IMG/VR virus record: IMGVR_UViG_3300042154_002208
Length of the DNA stretch: 64,000 nt
Source of the DNA: a virus
Lineage: Duplodnaviria; Caudoviricetes
Direction: 5' to 3' (one strand)
The first letter of the stretch is position 1. Each line of letters opens with the position of its first letter. The notes below the pieces were generated by a model. It searched no databases, was not told the origin of the DNA, and was given only the letters and a program-made list of their open reading frames with translations. This document shows positions 3,813 to 10,194 of this stretch, one piece after another. A program made the position numbers and the translations under genes.

Positions 3813-4117
3813 ACTACAAATATAATGAGGGTGAGTTAATTAAAGAGTTTCAAGAATACATTGATGCAACATATGGACAACATTATTCAATGAATAGATT
3901 CCAGGCATCCGAGTTTATTATTGATAATGGGCATGGTGTAGGATTTACTGCAGGCAATGTAATGAAATACGTCCAAAGATATGGCAAAAAAGCTGGTCGT
4001 AACAGACAAGACTTGTTAAAGGTTTTACACTACGCATTGATGTTGTTATATGTGCATGATCTTGAAACAGGCGAAGGCAATGCTGATAATTTTGAAATAC
4101 GTAAGGTAAATAAATGA
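3800..4117 (+). CDS. DUF3310-like (T7 gp1.7-like nucleotide kinase-related) conserved phage protein
   Basis: YKYNEGE, TYGQHY, GFTAGNVMKYVQRYGKK and DLLKVLHYA motifs recognised from T4-like phages. Confidence 0.65.
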   Translation: MAEIDYKYNEGELIKEFQEYIDATYGQHYSMNRFQASEFIIDNGHGVGFTAGNVMKYVQRYGKKAGRNRQDLLKVLHYALMLLYVHDLETGEGNADNFEIRKVNK

Positions 4118-4989
4118 GCACTATTCTTCTAGGTTCAAGCGGGTTTCTAGGCCCACAAATATTAGAAAAATATCCTGATATTGTTTCTGTTGGTCGCACA
4201 AAACCTGCAACAGGAGTGAAGCACGTGGATTGTCCTACATTAGAGCATCTACCCGAAGTTCTAGACAAATTAGATTTTGATAAAGTGATTATGATGATTG
4301 GTAGTTCTAATCATACAGAATTAAATTGTCAGAATATGTTAGCGATTGAAAAGAATGTAATACCGTTAAAAAAGGTATTTGCATATTTCAAGAATAGACC
4401 AATTAAAAAGCTATTAAGTTTTAGTTCTATTCTTTTATATGATCGCAGTAAAATGACTTTGCCGGTTGACGAATCGCAATCATTAAGTACTTATCAGAAT
4501 GAATACATTTTCAGTAAGTTCTTAGGCGAAGAAGTTGCAAAATTTTATTCTGATGTACCTAACATCATTGTGAGATTAACAAACATTTACGGACCAACTA
4601 CAGCATTAGATAGACCAGATTTGGTTAATCAATTAGTTGAAGGTTTGGTTATTCGTAAAAAAGCACGAGTATTAAATTTAAGACCACAGCGAGATTTTAT
4701 TTATACTGCAGATGCTTCTGACGCAATTGTAAAATTATTGGATACTGATTATACAGGTCCTGTTAATGTTGCTACAGGTCAAATGCATTCCGTAGGTGAC
4801 GTTGTTAAAATTTTAGAAAAACTTTCTGGAATTAAAATTGAAATAGGTGACGGTCCAGCAACTGGACATATGCAATTTGTTTCGGACAATACATTGATTA
4901 AGAAATTAATTGAATGGGAACCGAAATACAATTTGGAAGAAGGTCTAACAGAGACCTATAAAAAAATGATGGCTATGTATGGGAAATAG
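4114..4989 (+). CDS. NAD-dependent epimerase/dehydratase
   Basis: LGSSGFLG, YIFSK, RLTNIYGP, RDFIYTAD and VNVATG motifs. Confidence 0.85.
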   Translation: MSTILLGSSGFLGPQILEKYPDIVSVGRTKPATGVKHVDCPTLEHLPEVLDKLDFDKVIMMIGSSNHTELNCQNMLAIEKNVIPLKKVFAYFKNRPIKKLLSFSSILLYDRSKMTLPVDESQSLSTYQNEYIFSKFLGEEVAKFYSDVPNIIVRLTNIYGPTTALDRPDLVNQLVEGLVIRKKARVLNLRPQRDFIYTADASDAIVKLLDTDYTGPVNVATGQMHSVGDVVKILEKLSGIKIEIGDGPATGHMQFVSDNTLIKKLIEWEPKYNLEEGLTETYKKMMAMYGK

Positions 4990-6081: not shown

Positions 6082-7023
6082 ATGGAATTTCGTGAAGATC
6101 AATTTTTGTGGGTTGAAAAGTATCGCCCTCGTAAACTAGATGAATGTATTTTACCTGTAGACCAAAAGAAGGTCTTTCAGGACATGGTTGAAAAAGATGA
6201 AATACAAAACATGCTATTGTGTGGTTCGGCGGGTGTAGGTAAGACTACTATTGCCCGAGCATTATGTGAAGAACTAGGTACAGACTATATCATCATTAAC
6301 GGTTCAGAAGAATCTGGTATTGATGTTCTTAGAACTAAGATCAAACAGTTTGCTTCTACAGTATCCTTTAGTGGCAAGACTAAAGTTGTTATTTTAGATG
6401 AGGCTGATTACTTAAACCCCAATTCTACACAACCGGCCTTAAGAGCATTCATAGAAGAATTCTCAGCAAATTGCAGATTCATTTTTACTTGTAATTTTAA
6501 AAATCGTATTATTCCTCCGCTTCATTCTCGATGCGCGGTAATCGAATTTAAAATTGGTAAAGAAGAACGTCCTAAGATTGCTGCTCGTTTCTTTAAACGT
6601 GTTAATGAAATATTGGCAAACGAAAAGGTCGAAGCCGACCCTAAAGTTGTAGCAAAAGTTCTTGAGAAACATTTTCCCGATTATCGTCGTGTACTTAATG
6701 AGTTGCAGCGTTATGCATCTTCGGGTAAAATTGATGAGGGCATTCTTGTTAATATGGGTGAGGTTAATATGCAAGACCTTATCTCTGCTCTCAAAGACAA
6801 AGATTGGAAAAAGATGCGTACCTGGGTTGTTAACAATTTAGATAACGATCCGCAAACTCTTTTCAGAAAAATCTATGATACATTATTAGATTCGGTTGTT
6901 CAAGTTCCACAACTTGTTTTGTTGCTTGCAGACTATCAGTACAAAGCGGCATTTTGTGCAGACCAAGAAATTAATCTTGTTGCGTGTTTAACAGAGATTA
7001 TGGCATCGGTTGAATTTAAATGA
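6082..7023 (+). CDS. gp44: Clamp loader large subunit (T4 gp44)
   Basis: LWVEKYRP, Walker A GSAGVGKTT, ILDEAD, SRC and FPDYRR motifs. Confidence 0.95.
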   Translation: MEFREDQFLWVEKYRPRKLDECILPVDQKKVFQDMVEKDEIQNMLLCGSAGVGKTTIARALCEELGTDYIIINGSEESGIDVLRTKIKQFASTVSFSGKTKVVILDEADYLNPNSTQPALRAFIEEFSANCRFIFTCNFKNRIIPPLHSRCAVIEFKIGKEERPKIAARFFKRVNEILANEKVEADPKVVAKVLEKHFPDYRRVLNELQRYASSGKIDEGILVNMGEVNMQDLISALKDKDWKKMRTWVVNNLDNDPQTLFRKIYDTLLDSVVQVPQLVLLLADYQYKAAFCADQEINLVACLTEIMASVEFK

Positions 7024-7307
7024 TTGATTTATTAAAACCTACATTTGATTGGATTAAAGATGACTACATTACTAATCGCTTTCGTTTTTGCGTGGAGTTG
7101 CTTGCTTGGGCTATCAGTATTGGGTGTTCAATTACCATGGCTCTCACAGTCCCCAACCCGCCCCTACTTTCTCTTTACCCTATATGGATCGTCGGTTGCG
7201 GTATGTATGCTTGGGCTGCTTGGACTCGTAAATCTTTTGGCATGCTGGCTAACTATCTGTTACTGGTAACAATTGATTCAGTTGGACTGATAAGGATGCT
7301 ATCATGA
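7020..7307 (+). CDS. Small multi-pass membrane protein
   Basis: About three hydrophobic segments; ATGA overlaps at both ends. Confidence 0.65.
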   Translation: MIDLLKPTFDWIKDDYITNRFRFCVELLAWAISIGCSITMALTVPNPPLLSLYPIWIVGCGMYAWAAWTRKSFGMLANYLLLVTIDSVGLIRMLS

Positions 7308-7744
7308 GTTTATTTGGAACCCCTGTGGAAAAACCAGCAGAAGTTCCATATAAGGCTCCTGCAATTTCCCCCTTTGACTTTATTAATGCTATTCATTACA
7401 GCAAAGATAATCTAATCGTAGACGATTGGTCGGAGAAACAATATAACGCTTTTATCATTAATAAAGGACTATCTTACGGACATGACACAGTAATCCCTGC
7501 GAATGAGATGAATTCGCGACCACATCTTGAGAAAAAGATGCAGTTTTCGTTTCTTATAAATACTATTAGGCCCCGTAAAAGATTCAATAAATGGATCAAG
7601 GCGGAGAAAATTGAATCGATCGAAGTAATAAAAGAATACTATGGATATAGCACAGAAAAAGCCCGCCAAGTACTCCCGCTTCTCGACGACTCAAAATTAG
7701 ATTATTTAAGAACAAAACTAATAAAAGGTGGTCGTAATGGCTGA
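7304..7744 (+). CDS. gp62: Clamp loader small subunit (T4 gp62)
   Basis: PFDFINAI, YNAFIINKGLSY, NEMN, IRPRKRFNKW and KEYYGYS motifs. Confidence 0.92.
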   Translation: MSLFGTPVEKPAEVPYKAPAISPFDFINAIHYSKDNLIVDDWSEKQYNAFIINKGLSYGHDTVIPANEMNSRPHLEKKMQFSFLINTIRPRKRFNKWIKAEKIESIEVIKEYYGYSTEKARQVLPLLDDSKLDYLRTKLIKGGRNG

Positions 7745-8168
7745 AGATATTTTTCACATTGATTATCCTGGATACAACCCGCTGGAAGTAACCATGGCAC
7801 AACCTGACGATTTTTTGAAAGTCAGAGAAACTCTCACACGCATCGGTGTAGCATCCCGCAAAGATAAAGTACTGTATCAATCCTGCCATATTTTACATAA
7901 GCAAGGTAGATATTTCATTGTTCATTTTAAAGAGCTATTTGCTCTCGATGGTAAGACTGCAGATTTAACAGAGAACGATTTACAAAGACGTAATACAATT
8001 GCCAAGCTGCTAATAGATTGGGGCTTGGTAAAAATTATTGATCCTGATAAATTTACAGATTTAGCACCATTGTCGCAAATTAAAGTAATTGCTTTTAAAG
8101 ATAAGGGCGAATGGTCTTTACAAACAAAGTATAATATTGGTAAGAAAAAACAACCTACAGATGAATAA
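7737..8168 (+). CDS. regA: Translational repressor RegA
   Basis: DDFLKVRETLTRIG, LYQSCHILHKQGRYFIVHFKELF and KYNIGKK motifs; ATG at 7737 preferred over 7728. Confidence 0.95.
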   Translation: MAEDIFHIDYPGYNPLEVTMAQPDDFLKVRETLTRIGVASRKDKVLYQSCHILHKQGRYFIVHFKELFALDGKTADLTENDLQRRNTIAKLLIDWGLVKIIDPDKFTDLAPLSQIKVIAFKDKGEWSLQTKYNIGKKKQPTDE

Positions 8169-8172
8169 TCTG

Positions 8173-8180
8173 TATAAATA
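8173..8180 (+). promoter_or_regulatory. T4-type late promoter
   Basis: TATAAATA upstream of a structured leader. Confidence 0.7.
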
Positions 8181-8186
8181 ATAATA

Positions 8187-8340
8187 TCCCAGGGATGGGA
8201 ACTAGCAGTCCGAGGTAGGCTAGTAAAATATTCCTCGGGCCAATTTCAGTCCCACTACCTTGGGAACGTCTAAAGCTGGTACAACGTATGGTACCCCTGT
8301 AGTCAGTAAGCAGGATTAACGCTATGCCTTCGGGGTAGCA
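8187..8340 (+). ncRNA. Structured leader RNA with an H-type pseudoknot and a C(UUCG)G hairpin upstream of phasin-like/hsp20 genes
   Basis: ACTAGC 8201-06 pairs with GCTAGT 8219-24; CCGAGG 8210-15 with CCTCGG 8233-38. Outer stem 8187-8200/8250-65; UUCG hairpin 8321-39. Confidence 0.6.
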
Positions 8341-8370
8341 AATTTTAAACTCGCTTAATAGGAGAACTAT

Positions 8371-8601
8371 ATGTTTTACGCAAACATGGCTATCGATTCA
8401 ATTCAAGACGCCAAAATCAACTTCCTCAAACAAACAGTCAAGGAAGATTCCCTTCAAAAACCTCTAGTCGATTTTGTAGAAGCACAACGGGTCTTTACAA
8501 AACAAGTTGCTAAGTCTGCTAACGATGTAATGAATATTGCGTCAGAGACTTTTGCTAATTCGATTACTGGTAAAACAAGTAAAAAGGGAGAATCAAAATG
8601 A
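8371..8601 (+). CDS. Small helical protein, possibly phasin-like
   Basis: Strong SD (AGGAG); amphipathic helical pattern. Family assignment is from memory only. Confidence 0.45.
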   Translation: MFYANMAIDSIQDAKINFLKQTVKEDSLQKPLVDFVEAQRVFTKQVAKSANDVMNIASETFANSITGKTSKKGESK

Positions 8602-9122
8602 CATTTGTTCCACAAATATTTGGCCGTGATATGTTCAAAGACTTTGATAAACTATATGTAGGCTTTGACGATCAATTTAGCAAGATGGCCAAGATTCATG
8701 ATGATCTAACAAAGAGCATTCCGAATTATCCACCATACAATATTAAGAAAACTGGCGATACAACTTATGTTATTGAAGTTGCAGTTGCTGGTTTTGCGAG
8801 ACAGGATATTGAAATTGAACTTGCCGATGGCAAAATGATTATTAAAGGCAATGTAAATGGTGCAGAGCAAGAAGATAATTTCTTGTTCAAAGGTATTGCT
8901 AATAGAGCATTTACTCGCACATTTGCTTTAGAAGACCATATTGAAGTTCAAGATGCTGCTATGTTAAATGGTATGCTTAAGATTTTCTTAGAGCGTATTA
9001 TTCCAGAACATAAGAAGCCAAAGAAAATTGAAGTTAAAGATTCTGAAGTAAGCACAAAGCCTACAAAGAAATCTAAGCCTCAATTACTTACAGAAGATCC
9101 TGTAGAAAATAGAAACCTATAA
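8598..9122 (+). CDS. hsp20: Small heat shock protein Hsp20 (IbpA-like)
   Basis: NYPPYNIKK, IEVAVAGF, KGIANRAFTRTFAL and NGMLKIFLER motifs. Confidence 0.95.
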   Translation: MTFVPQIFGRDMFKDFDKLYVGFDDQFSKMAKIHDDLTKSIPNYPPYNIKKTGDTTYVIEVAVAGFARQDIEIELADGKMIIKGNVNGAEQEDNFLFKGIANRAFTRTFALEDHIEVQDAAMLNGMLKIFLERIIPEHKKPKKIEVKDSEVSTKPTKKSKPQLLTEDPVENRNL

Positions 9123-9307
9123 TGAATAATGATCTAAAAGAATTTGAGGGAGTTCATTTCCCTGCAATGAAAGACTTTTGGTCATGGGTTGAAAAAGCCT
9201 TTACTCCTTCATATCAAAAAGAAATTGATATGTATTTGAAAGATTCTGTAGATTATAAAGATCTAGAACATAGAATGCAGGTATTAGCACGTAGAGGATT
9301 ACTATGA
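9122..9307 (+). CDS. DUF3563-like small protein
   Basis: YLKDSVDYKDLEHRM motif resembles the Burkholderiales DUF3563 family. Confidence 0.55.
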   Translation: MNNDLKEFEGVHFPAMKDFWSWVEKAFTPSYQKEIDMYLKDSVDYKDLEHRMQVLARRGLL

Positions 9308-9933: not shown

Positions 9934-10113
9934 ATGAGCGGTAAGGGTAGTAAACCTAGACCATATAGTGTTCCTATTGCTACATTTGATAATAATTACG
10001 ATGCTATTTTTCGTAATTATAAAAAAACAGATGAAGAAAAATTTGATGATGCGATTATGAAAAACGAATACTATGAAGATTCTGAGAAGCTAACAGAAAA
10101 AGATTATAAATAA
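9934..10113 (+). CDS. 59-aa conserved phage hypothetical protein
   Basis: MSGKGSKPRPYSV...FDNNYDAIF; abuts the upstream stop. Confidence 0.6.
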   Translation: MSGKGSKPRPYSVPIATFDNNYDAIFRNYKKTDEEKFDDAIMKNEYYEDSEKLTEKDYK

Positions 10114-10120
10114 ATTATAC

Positions 10121-10194
10121 CGCGGATTGGTGAAATGGTATCACAAAGGACTCATAATCCTTAGTTCCTAGTTCAACTCTGGGGTCCGCATCCA
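10121..10194 (+). tRNA. tRNA-CAT, initiator (fMet)-like
   Basis: Cloverleaf with C1:A72 mismatch, G2-C71, C3-G70; anticodon arm AAGGA-CTCATAA-TCCTT; CCA end; TATAAATA at 10105-10112. Confidence 0.8.

What the first reader, a model, noticed from the sequence alone, without database searches (positions are those of the whole stretch)
8173..8370. Pseudoknotted, late-promoter-driven leader RNA ahead of the phasin-like/Hsp20 operon
Seen: an H-type pseudoknot (ACTAGC/GCTAGT, CCGAGG/CCTCGG, A-rich loop AAAATATT) is nested in an outer stem (8187-8200/8250-65). It is followed by GGTAC/GTACC and CCTG/CAGG stems and a C(UUCG)G hairpin just before the SD. Established: RNA thermometers precede small HSP genes, and the T4 gene 32 operator is a pseudoknot. 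Inference: it could be a thermometer, a RegA or other protein operator, a riboswitch or a small ribozyme. I cannot assign it to a known family.
Basis: partly seen in the sequence, partly recalled or inferred. Interest (0 to 1): 0.7.

Follow-up and report, generated by a model that had tools for sequence, protein, structure and literature searches.

The report
Pseudoknotted leader ending in ROSE-like thermometer
The 185-base untranslated leader in front of a lake phage's small heat-shock operon ends in the two-hairpin "ROSE-like" RNA element that bacteria use as a translational thermometer, and upstream of it carries conserved pseudoknotted RNA modules that match no described family and whose function is unknown.

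Summary

**ROSE-like core (8321-8364).** Hairpin I is capped UUCG and has a bulged G. Hairpin II pairs UCGCU, with a bulged G, against the Shine-Dalgarno AGGAG. The core aligns end to end with Rfam ROSE_3, but below threshold. The same core precedes hsp20 in over 100 viral contigs and 305 cultured cyanophage records. This scan had already found it on phage hsp20 in other genomes, and I found no paper describing it in phages.

**Upstream modules, found only in uncultured freshwater T4-like phages:**
- a 5'-terminal hairpin, M1 (8187-8200)
- a hairpin, M3 (8250-8265)

Compensatory base changes support PK1 and the 8266-8314 stems and linker-loop pairs. M3 is less consistent, and M1 has none.

**Function.** No response to temperature has been measured. 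The role of the upstream modules is inferred only: mRNA stabiliser or folding aid, or a protein- or ligand-binding platform.

The parts
8173..8180 (+). T4-type late promoter octamer TATAAATA. The predicted transcript start is about 8186.
   Evidence: Sequence. A late-promoter-like octamer lies 5-9 nt upstream of the first hairpin in 43 of 66 distinct M1-bearing leaders (an octamer at any distance in 53 of 66), whatever the upstream gene. The motif count in the window is not itself above chance (13 against 10.5 expected).
8187..8200 (+). M1, the 5'-terminal hairpin: UCCCA / UGGGA with loop GGGA. The 3' half GGGAUGGGA is nearly invariant.
   Evidence: Present in 73 distinct leaders. Pairing potential is kept (C-G or U.G), but there are no compensatory changes because the 3' strand never varies.
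8201..8240 (+). PK1, an H-type pseudoknot. Stem 1: 8201-06 / 8219-24. Loop 1: A8207. Stem 2: 8208-15 / 8233-40. Loop 2: UAG 8216-18. Loop 3: AAAAUAUU 8225-32.
   Evidence: About 20 distinct covarying versions exist. Stem 1 is 99% paired and stem 2 is 96.9% paired, and six pairs have changes on both sides.
8250..8265 (+). M3 hairpin: UCCC / GGGA with loop ACUACCUU. The motif ACCUU(A/G)GG is conserved across all size classes.
   Evidence: The arms covary (CUCC/GGGG, CUCUU/AGGAG, GCCC/GGGC). RNAalifold predicts the hairpin independently.
8266..8314 (+). PK2 domain. The linker (8266-77) pairs with two hairpin loops. Hairpin M4: 8278-82 / 8291-95. Hairpin M5: 8296-8300 / 8310-14. Tertiary pairs PK2a: G8275.U8307, C8276-G8306, U8277-A8305. 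Tertiary pairs PK2b: C8267-G8286, G8268-C8285, U8269-A8284.
   Evidence: M4 and M5 are 99% paired, with 4 and 3 covarying pairs. PK2a is 100% paired, and its third pair takes all four Watson-Crick forms (UA 20, GC 13, CG 4, AU 3). PK2b has CG 35 / UA 4, plus one C-G for U-A exchange, and no exception other than one misaligned row.
8321..8339 (+). ROSE-like hairpin I: GCUAU(G)CC [UUCG] GGGUAGC, with G8326 bulged.
   Evidence: 98 distinct sequences, 5 covarying pairs, 90.8% of cells paired. It aligns to hairpin I of Rfam ROSE_3.
8350..8364 (+). ROSE-like hairpin II: CUC(G)CU [UAAU] AGGAG. The Shine-Dalgarno sequence (8360-64) pairs with UCGCU (8351-55), and G8353 is bulged.
   Evidence: It is the minimum-free-energy structure of the core from 10 to 50 C. 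It aligns to hairpin II of ROSE_3. ACUCGCUU was present in all 42 distinct leaders found through the protein alone.
8371..8601 (+). 76-aa ORF of unknown function, the first gene behind the leader. Its stop codon overlaps the hsp20 start (ATGA at 8598-8601).
   Evidence: No Pfam or PHROG family matched. Only weak Atlas leads point to PHB_acc or Phasin_2 clusters.
8598..9122 (+). hsp20, a small heat-shock protein.
   Evidence: Pfam HSP20 E 2.7e-16. PHROG 432 E 1.3e-39. PDB sHSP chains matched at E 3e-17.

Best explanation
**What it is.** The region is the roughly 185-nt 5' untranslated leader of a late transcript that encodes a 76-aa protein and Hsp20.

**The core (shown by sequence).** The last 45-55 nt are a short two-hairpin ROSE-like element. 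A stable, UUCG-capped hairpin I with a bulged G is followed by a weak hairpin II. In hairpin II, UCGCU and a bulged G mask the Shine-Dalgarno AGGAG.

**How the core probably works (inferred).** As in bacterial ibpA leaders, hairpin II limits 30S binding when closed and lets translation start when it opens. Opening could come from warming or from release of a bound repressor.

**The upstream part (shown by comparison of relatives).** Upstream lie four self-contained structural modules: 5'-terminal hairpin M1, pseudoknot PK1, hairpin M3 and the doubly pseudoknotted PK2 domain. They are added to or dropped from this leader in different freshwater T4-like phages.

**What the upstream part probably does (inferred).** These modules probably do not sense temperature themselves. 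They more likely protect the 5' end of the mRNA from decay and keep the weak sensor hairpin correctly folded. This is the role proposed for the extra 5' hairpins of bacterial ROSE elements.
For: **ROSE likeness**
- Window 8318-8376 matches all 69 positions of ROSE_3 (15.7 bits, E 0.25 on 111 nt). Cyanophage versions score 23.3 bits, E 0.0038.
- The letters AUGCC..GGGU and ACUCGCU..AGGAG are shared with the ROSE_3 consensus.
- The published definition is 2-4 hairpins, with the last one holding the SD imperfectly paired to U(U/C)GCU and a bulged G (PMC11182007; PMC3669281). The sequence and its predicted fold meet it.

**Conservation**
- All 42 distinct leaders found through the protein alone carry the core.
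- Over 119 further distinct viral examples were found by DNA pattern.
- 305 cultured cyanophage records have it just upstream of 'heat shock protein', unannotated.
- Hairpin I covaries strongly.

**Stability**
- Predicted hairpin II energy is -6.2 kcal/mol at 4 C, -4.4 at 20 C and -2.5 at 37 C.
- At lake temperatures this falls in the -4.1 to -7.6 kcal/mol range reported for Pseudomonas thermosensing hairpins (PMC3669281).

**Upstream modules**
- Covariation supports PK1 and the PK2 stems and tertiary pairs; M3 less consistently, and M1 not at all.
- The modules come and go as units.
- M1 starts 5-9 nt after the late-promoter octamer, that is, at the predicted 5' end.
- Krajewski et al. state that hairpin II alone suffices for thermoregulation. 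They suggest the 5' hairpins may stabilise the transcript and help folding.
Against: - The ROSE_3 score is far below Rfam's gathering score (43 bits).
- Hairpin II has only 5 bp and its arms never vary, so covariation cannot test it.
- The nearest-neighbour model predicts only a shallow change in SD accessibility: 0.23 unpaired at 20 C against 0.29 at 42 C.
- No temperature response has been measured for any phage copy.
- hsp20 has its own GGGAG upstream of its AUG (8584-8592, read). In this phage the element therefore gates the 76-aa ORF directly and hsp20 perhaps only by coupling.
- The upstream modules hold many invariant unpaired nucleotides: GGGAUGGGA, ACCUU(A/G)GG, UAAAGC, ACG and GUAA. 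PK2 also has an intricate fold. This is more than a simple 5' protective structure needs, and it is typical of RNAs that bind a ligand or protein.
- In one phage, M1 plus PK1 sits after regA, before a terminator and without hsp20.
Confidence: 0.6

Rival explanations
1. The upstream domain (M1, PK1, M3, PK2) is a sensor of its own, either an operator or an aptamer. It would bind a protein or a small molecule and thereby set whether the ROSE hairpins close. The most obvious protein is the phage Hsp20 itself, as E. coli IbpA binds its own 5' UTR. In that case the leader reports chaperone demand or a metabolite rather than, or as well as, temperature.
For: - Invariant unpaired nucleotides sit inside covarying scaffolds: GGGAUGGGA in M1. 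In the PK1 subtype, loop 1 is an invariant A; AAAAUAUU (loop 3) was fixed by the search pattern. UAAAGC, ACG and GUAA are invariant in PK2.
- Three independent tertiary or pseudoknot contacts are present.
- The modules occur almost only in front of the ROSE core.
- IbpA of gamma-proteobacteria represses its own translation by binding its thermometer-bearing 5' UTR. This needs R93, with R97 and K98 (PMC10474464).
- The phage Hsp20 has R-x-F-x-R in the matching stretch, GIANRAFTRTF (alignment). The correspondence to IbpA R93/R97 rests on my memory of the IbpA sequence, so it is a lead only.
Against: - No known riboswitch or protein-binding RNA family matched.
- The modules are dispensable in most relatives, which keep only the core.
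- I found no conserved alternative pairing between the upstream domain and the ROSE hairpins. The M3 loop against the hairpin I 3' strand does not covary (checked by eye on the and 64 lists).
- Neither a ligand nor binding has been tested.
Confidence: 0.25
2. M1 plus PK1 is an independent RNA element linked to the end of the regA transcription unit. It could be a 3'-end stabiliser or a small RNA. On this view it lies in the hsp20 leader only because hsp20 was inserted next to it.
For: - In L531/L410 the order is gp44, gp62, regA, M1+PK1, an intrinsic-terminator-like hairpin with a U run, then unrelated genes. There is no hsp20 and no late promoter.
- In L395 a second late promoter lies between PK1 and the ROSE core.
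- M1+PK1 often follows regA directly: in the window, L275, L230, L395 and L526.
Against: - The same module also follows other genes, namely pqqA-like and rubredoxin-like ORFs, always with a late promoter octamer just upstream and the ROSE core downstream.
- Only one contig shows the stand-alone form. That form could be a remnant left by deletion of hsp20.
Confidence: 0.1
3. The leader contains a small self-cleaving ribozyme that processes the late transcript.
For: Only the general resemblance: a compact, multiply pseudoknotted fold with invariant unpaired nucleotides.
Against: No ribozyme family of Rfam 15 matches at E up to 10.
Confidence: 0.03

Closest known systems
Short two-hairpin ROSE-like RNA thermometers of Pseudomonas ibpA (Rfam ROSE_3, RF02523; Krajewski, Nagel and Narberhaus 2013, PMC3669281)
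   Same: - Both lie in the 5' UTR of a small heat-shock gene.
- Both have a GC-rich hairpin I with a bulged G, followed by a short hairpin II.
- In hairpin II, U(U/C)GCU and a bulged G pair with the SD.
- The alignment to the model covers its full length and shares AUGCC..GGGU and ACUCGCU..AGGAG.
   Different: - The score is below the family's gathering score (15.7-23.3 bits against 43).
- Hairpin II is 2 bp shorter and much weaker at 37 C (-2.5 kcal/mol).
- The element is driven by a phage late promoter rather than sigma-32.
- In this phage the first gene behind it is a 76-aa ORF, not hsp20.
- It is preceded by about 130 nt of pseudoknotted modules that no described ROSE element has.
- Its temperature response is untested.
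Long ROSE elements of rhizobia and E. coli ibpA (three or four hairpins)
   Same: Extra 5' hairpins lie upstream of the sensing hairpin. Their role is described as not fully understood, and folding aid or transcript stability has been proposed (PMC3669281).
   Different: The phage modules are pseudoknots with tertiary contacts, not simple hairpins. Neither ROSE nor ROSE_2 matched the upstream part.
Autoregulatory pseudoknot at the 5' end of the phage T4/T2 gene 32 mRNA
   Same: Both are H-type pseudoknots near the 5' end of a T4-like phage mRNA leader with a one-nucleotide loop 1 (recalled from established knowledge; not tested here).
   Different: - The gene differs.
- In gene 32 the pseudoknot is followed by an unstructured A/U-rich tract that gp32 coats, whereas here further structured modules follow.
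- I could not test sequence similarity.
IbpA self-repression through its own 5' UTR (Miwa and Taguchi; PMC10474464)
   Same: A small heat-shock gene sits behind a ROSE-type leader. The phage Hsp20 keeps an R-x-F-x-R stretch in the alpha-crystallin domain.
   Different: Binding is known only for gamma-proteobacterial IbpA. The RNA determinants are not defined, and nothing has been tested for phage proteins.

Membership tests
ROSE-like RNA thermometer (short type, Rfam ROSE_3 RF02523) | Lies in the 5' UTR of a small heat-shock (ibpA/hsp20) gene | tested here: met
   The leader precedes a 76-aa ORF whose stop overlaps the hsp20 start. In many relatives the same core lies directly before hsp20.
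ROSE-like RNA thermometer (short type, Rfam ROSE_3 RF02523) | [quoted passage not shown] | tested here: met
   The minimum-free-energy fold of 8318-8400 gives hairpin I and an SD-containing hairpin II from 10 to 50 C. Hairpin I has 5 covarying pairs.
ROSE-like RNA thermometer (short type, Rfam ROSE_3 RF02523) | SD imperfectly paired with a conserved U(U/C)GCU motif and a bulged G | tested here: met
   UCGCU 8351-55 lies opposite AGGAG 8360-64, with G8353 unpaired. One relative (L431) has the UUGCU form. The arms never vary, so covariation says nothing either way.
ROSE-like RNA thermometer (short type, Rfam ROSE_3 RF02523) | Score at or above Rfam's gathering threshold (43 bits) | tested here: not met
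   15.7 bits for the window. 23.2-23.3 bits for cyanophage-like copies.
ROSE-like RNA thermometer (short type, Rfam ROSE_3 RF02523) | Translation and 30S binding rise with temperature through melting of hairpin II | not testable with these tools
   Only predicted energies are available: -6.2 kcal/mol at 4 C to -1.9 at 42 C.
H-type RNA pseudoknot (structural class) | Two stems in which the loop of the first pairs with sequence 3' of it, and both stems are kept by compensatory changes | tested here: met
   PK1: stem 1 is 99% paired and stem 2 is 96.9% paired, with 3 covarying pairs each, above shuffled and slid controls.
Any riboswitch, ribozyme or phage cis-regulatory RNA family in Rfam 15 | Match to the family's covariance model | tested here: not met
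   No family matched the upstream domain at E up to 10 in 7600-9200.
T4 gene 32 translational operator | 5' pseudoknot followed by an unstructured A/U-rich tract up to the start of gene 32 | tested here: not met
   The downstream gene is not gene 32. The tract after PK1 is structured: M3, PK2 and the ROSE hairpins.
RegA translational operator | RegA binds an A/U-rich site overlapping the start codon of early mRNAs | not tested
   No binding model was at hand. The leader follows regA in many phages, but also follows other genes.

The most novel reading that the evidence does not exclude
The upstream 130 nt (M1, PK1, M3 and the doubly pseudoknotted PK2 domain) would be a new class of regulatory RNA specific to freshwater T4-like phages. 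It would be an aptamer or operator that binds the phage small heat-shock protein, the 76-aa protein or a small molecule, and would couple that signal to a ROSE-type thermometer. The result would be a two-input switch on a viral chaperone operon.
Probability: 0.25. Interest if true: 0.8.

Novelty: new variant of a known kind. Interest (0 to 1): 0.6.

Why it matters
**Thermometers in phages.** A 2024 paper counts only about three RNA thermometers in phages: lambda cIII, SPbeta blyA and a sigma-70 leader (PMC11182007). A ROSE-type leader on hsp20, a core gene of marine cyanomyoviruses (PMC3037559), would therefore be by far the most widespread viral case. It would give a testable route by which very abundant aquatic viruses tune chaperone synthesis after transcription.

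**What this window adds.** In lake phages the simple bacterial element has been extended by conserved pseudoknotted modules with tertiary contacts. RNA of this complexity is usually seen in riboswitches and ribozymes. The extension offers a natural series of leaders: core only, core plus PK1, core plus PK2, and all modules together. That series could show what the poorly understood 5' parts of ROSE elements do.

Tried and rejected
**Searches that found nothing useful**
- Rfam scan at E up to 10 over 7600-9200: no relevant hit. ROSE_3 appeared only when a short stretch was searched.
- ARAGORN: no tRNA or tmRNA in the leader.
- The core motifs occur once in the 64-kb window, so there is no second copy on another chaperone gene here.
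- The loose viral scan GGGATGGGA..GTAAAA gave almost only chance hits.
- The metagenome scan for M1+PK1 added only a few true copies.
- The genome-contig scan for M1..ROSE found one contig filed under an Erysipelotrichaceae MAG. It is a T4-like phage fragment with regA and hsp20, so no bacterial source was found by that exact pattern.
- No cultured phage record holds the long leader.
- No whole genome is held for this window.

**Ideas tested and dropped**
- tRNA-like 3' end: NCCA follows stem 2 of PK1 in some copies, but in many copies CCA is simply the 5' arm of hairpin I, and other subtypes lack it.
- M3 loop CUACCUU pairing with the 3' strand of hairpin I (GGGGUAG): possible in the window, but it does not covary with hairpin I in relatives.
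- Long-range pairing of 8283-8294 with the start-codon region in the single-sequence fold: not supported, because the covarying M4 and M5 stems exclude it.
- A leader peptide starting at the AUG inside GGGAUGGGA: the frame and length are not conserved (read).

**RNA evidence**
- Lake metatranscriptome contigs of three studies cover 8242-8486. One reaches into a relative's PK1.
- None of the four runs covers 7988-8163. Contigs cannot show a start, an end or a strand, and DNA carry-over is possible, so I draw no conclusion on the transcript's 5' end or on cleavage.

Full report
**Setting**

- The window comes from an uncultured T4-like phage. DNA runs that hold it are lake-water metagenomes.
- The gene order around the finding is:
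  - gp44-like clamp loader (6082-7023)
  - a small membrane ORF
  - gp62-like (7304-7744; Pfam Phage_clamp_A)
  - regA (7728-8168; Translat_reg, E 2.9e-48)
  - a 202-nt gap (8169-8370)
  - a 76-aa ORF (8371-8601)
  - hsp20 (8598-9122; HSP20, E 2.7e-16; PHROG 432, E 1.3e-39)
  
- No ORF of 40 aa or more lies in the gap on either strand.
- The 76-aa ORF stop overlaps the hsp20 start (ATGA).
- The 76-aa protein has no Pfam or PHROG family. 'Phasin-like' rests only on weak Atlas leads.

- The single-sequence fold is better than shuffles (z = -2.7). The decisive evidence is comparative.
- Searching viral contigs with Hsp20 and with the 76-aa protein gave 158 loci.
- The 42 distinct upstream regions obtained this way, selected by protein and not by RNA, all keep the leader's 3' part. 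They differ by whole blocks in the 5' part.
- Further pattern scans raised the set to 163 distinct leaders.

- It is present and can be refined:
  - stem 1: 8201-06 / 8219-24
  - loop 1: A8207
  - stem 2, 8 bp: 8208-15 / 8233-40
  - loop 2: UAG
  - loop 3: AAAAUAUU
- About 20 different versions keep both stems through compensatory changes. Examples of stem 2 are GUGAGGGG/CCCCUCAC, GUGGGAGG/CCUUCCGC and GUCGGAGG/CCUCCGAC.
- On 16 distinct sequences of the window's subtype:
  - stem 1 is 99% paired
  - stem 2 is 96.9% paired
  - six pairs change on both sides
  - no shuffle or slid register comes near
- Other subtypes have different sequences but the same topology and an A-rich loop 3.

- GGTAC/GTACC and CCTG/CAGG are each 99% paired in 39 distinct sequences, with 4 and 3 covarying pairs. 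RNAalifold predicts them independently.
- The UUCG hairpin has five covarying pairs in 98 distinct sequences and a constant bulged G.

*The outer stem*
- Its UGGGA/UCCCA half can form completely in only 7 of 41 distinct leaders that have both ends, all from the window's own clade.
- A local hairpin M1 (UCCCA/UGGGA, loop GGGA) and a local hairpin M3 (UCCC/GGGA, loop ACUACCUU) form in all 41.
- Each of these hairpins also occurs in leaders that lack the other.

*1. A ROSE-like core at the 3' end*
- When only 111 nt are searched, window 8318-8376 aligns over all 69 positions of Rfam ROSE_3 (RF02523): 15.7 bits, E 0.25, against a gathering score of 43.
- Cyanophage-like copies reach 23.3 bits, E 0.0038.
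- The shared letters are those that define the family:
  - AUGCC..GGGU with a bulged G in hairpin I
  - ACUCGCU..AGGAG in hairpin II
- In the window, C8350-G8364, U8351-A8363, C8352-G8362, C8354-G8361 and U8355-A8360 pair around the bulged G8353, with loop UAAU. The SD (8360-64) is therefore masked, 6 nt before the AUG at 8371.
- This is the minimum-free-energy fold of the core from 10 to 50 C.
- It fits the published definition of ROSE-like elements (PMC11182007; PMC3669281).

*2. A second pseudoknotted domain at 8266-8314*
- The linker before hairpin M4 pairs with two hairpin loops.
- PK2a:
  - G8275, C8276 and U8277 pair with U8307, G8306 and A8305 in the M5 loop.
  - The contact is 100% paired in 40 distinct sequences.
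  - Its third pair takes all four Watson-Crick forms (UA 20, GC 13, CG 4, AU 3).
- PK2b:
  - C8267, G8268 and U8269 pair with G8286, C8285 and A8284 in the M4 loop.
  - The first pair is CG in 35 sequences and UA in 4.
  - One sequence has C-G in place of U-A at the third pair.
  - There are no exceptions apart from one misaligned row.
- The sequences were chosen by flanking invariant motifs, not by the covarying positions.
- The evidence for PK2b is thinner than for PK2a, with perhaps two or three independent events.

**Distribution**

- The core alone, placed 3-4 nt behind a late-promoter-like octamer, precedes hsp20 in marine cyanophage-like contigs. It also occurs in 305 cultured Synechococcus and Prochlorococcus phage records, where nothing is annotated on it.
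- The long forms occur only in uncultured, mostly freshwater contigs. No cultured phage record has them.
- The one hit in 185,579 species genomes is a mis-binned phage fragment.
- The modules combine freely:
  - core only (77 of 163 distinct leaders)
  - M1 + PK1 + core
  - M1 + M3/PK2 + core
  - all of them, as in the window
  - M3/PK2 + core without M1
  - PK1 without M1
  
- PK2 comes in three size classes (86-91, 102-106 and 110-119 nt, counted with M3 and the start of hairpin I). All share ACCUU(A/G)GG and GUAA; UAAAGC and the M4-loop ACG were shown only for the two shorter classes.
- M1 begins 5-9 nt after the promoter octamer, at the predicted 5' end of the late transcript.
- Two odd cases:
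  - In L531/L410, regA is followed by M1 + PK1 and then a terminator-like hairpin. There is no hsp20.
  - In L395 a second late promoter lies between PK1 and the core.

**How it most likely works**

*Shown*
- The structures exist as conserved, covarying RNA.
- The 3' end has the ROSE signature.

*Inferred for the core*
- Hairpin II gates ribosome binding as in Pseudomonas ibpA. There, hairpin II alone suffices for thermoregulation and hairpin I stays closed (PMC3669281).
- The predicted stability of the phage hairpin II is -2.5 kcal/mol at 37 C, -4.4 at 20 C and -6.2 at 4 C.
- This reaches the -4.1 to -7.6 kcal/mol range reported for Pseudomonas sensing hairpins only at lake temperatures. That would fit a sensor tuned to cold water.
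- The model predicts only a shallow change in SD accessibility, and nothing has been measured.

*Inferred for the upstream modules*
- Krajewski et al. say the role of the 5' hairpins of ROSE elements is not understood. They propose folding help and transcript stabilisation by a 5'-terminal stem-loop.
- M1 at the very 5' end, followed by compact pseudoknots, fits that proposal. I give this combined reading 0.6.

*Main rival (0.25)*
- The upstream domain may be a sensor of its own.
- It holds many invariant unpaired nucleotides within covarying scaffolds and has three tertiary contacts. This is typical of RNAs that bind a ligand or protein.
- E. coli IbpA is known to repress its own translation by binding its thermometer-bearing 5' UTR (PMC10474464).

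*Minor rivals*
- A regA-linked 3' element or small RNA (0.1).
- A ribozyme (0.03).

**Relation to earlier notes of this scan**

- Follow-up agents on other genomes had already reported short ROSE-like leaders on phage hsp20, dnaK and groES. They named ROSE_3 and Krajewski 2013 as the closest known.
- My own Rfam alignments and covariation counts agree with them.
- Two first readers on another genome had noted a pseudoknot in front of such a leader, but no follow-up was listed.
- Here the pseudoknot is tested and confirmed, and a second pseudoknotted domain is added.
- I found no paper that links cyanophages or T4-like phages with an RNA thermometer on hsp20.

**Verdict**

- Membership in Rfam ROSE_3 is not met by score, although the defining sequence and structure features are met. 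I file the core as ROSE-like and the whole leader as a new variant of that kind.
- The upstream modules match no described family.

Noticed in passing
L531 2280-2400 (- strand; same contig as L410): A related T4-like phage has gp44, gp62, regA, then M1 + PK1 and a terminator-like hairpin with a U run. A 61-aa ORF and a dCMP-deaminase-like gene follow. There is no hsp20 and no late promoter octamer.
   Followed up: partly
L395 2930-3100: Between PK1 and the ROSE-like core lies a second late-promoter octamer (GATATAAATA). The core can therefore have its own promoter, which would leave M1 + PK1 on a separate or read-through transcript.
   Followed up: no
L207, L191 and L429, just upstream of the leader: A short ORF ends in ...RFGFEVTMY(I/V)..., which looks like a PqqA-type precursor peptide (recalled from memory, not tested). 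In these phages it takes the place of regA as the upstream neighbour of the leader.
   Followed up: no
L273 368-556 (- strand): A strong match to the manA RNA motif (RF01745, 191 bits) lies next to a cyanophage-type hsp20 leader.
   Followed up: no
L537 (CAZXTB010000315.1, filed as an uncultured Erysipelotrichaceae MAG): This 1.8-kb contig carries a regA 3' end, M1 + pseudoknot + ROSE core and hsp20. It is a T4-like phage fragment, probably mis-binned into the MAG.
   Followed up: partly
window 10105-10194: A TATAAATA octamer (10105-10112) sits 8 nt before a lone tRNA-Met gene (10121-10194), far from the main tRNA array at 30-38 kb.
   Followed up: no
window 8584-8601: hsp20 has its own GGGAG upstream of its AUG, inside the end of the 76-aa ORF. 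The ROSE-like hairpin may therefore not control its translation fully.
   Followed up: no
L431 about 4090-4125: This relative has ACUUGCUU in place of ACUCGCUU, which is the UUGCU form of the ROSE motif. It also has the only C-G exchange at the third pair of PK2b.
   Followed up: partly
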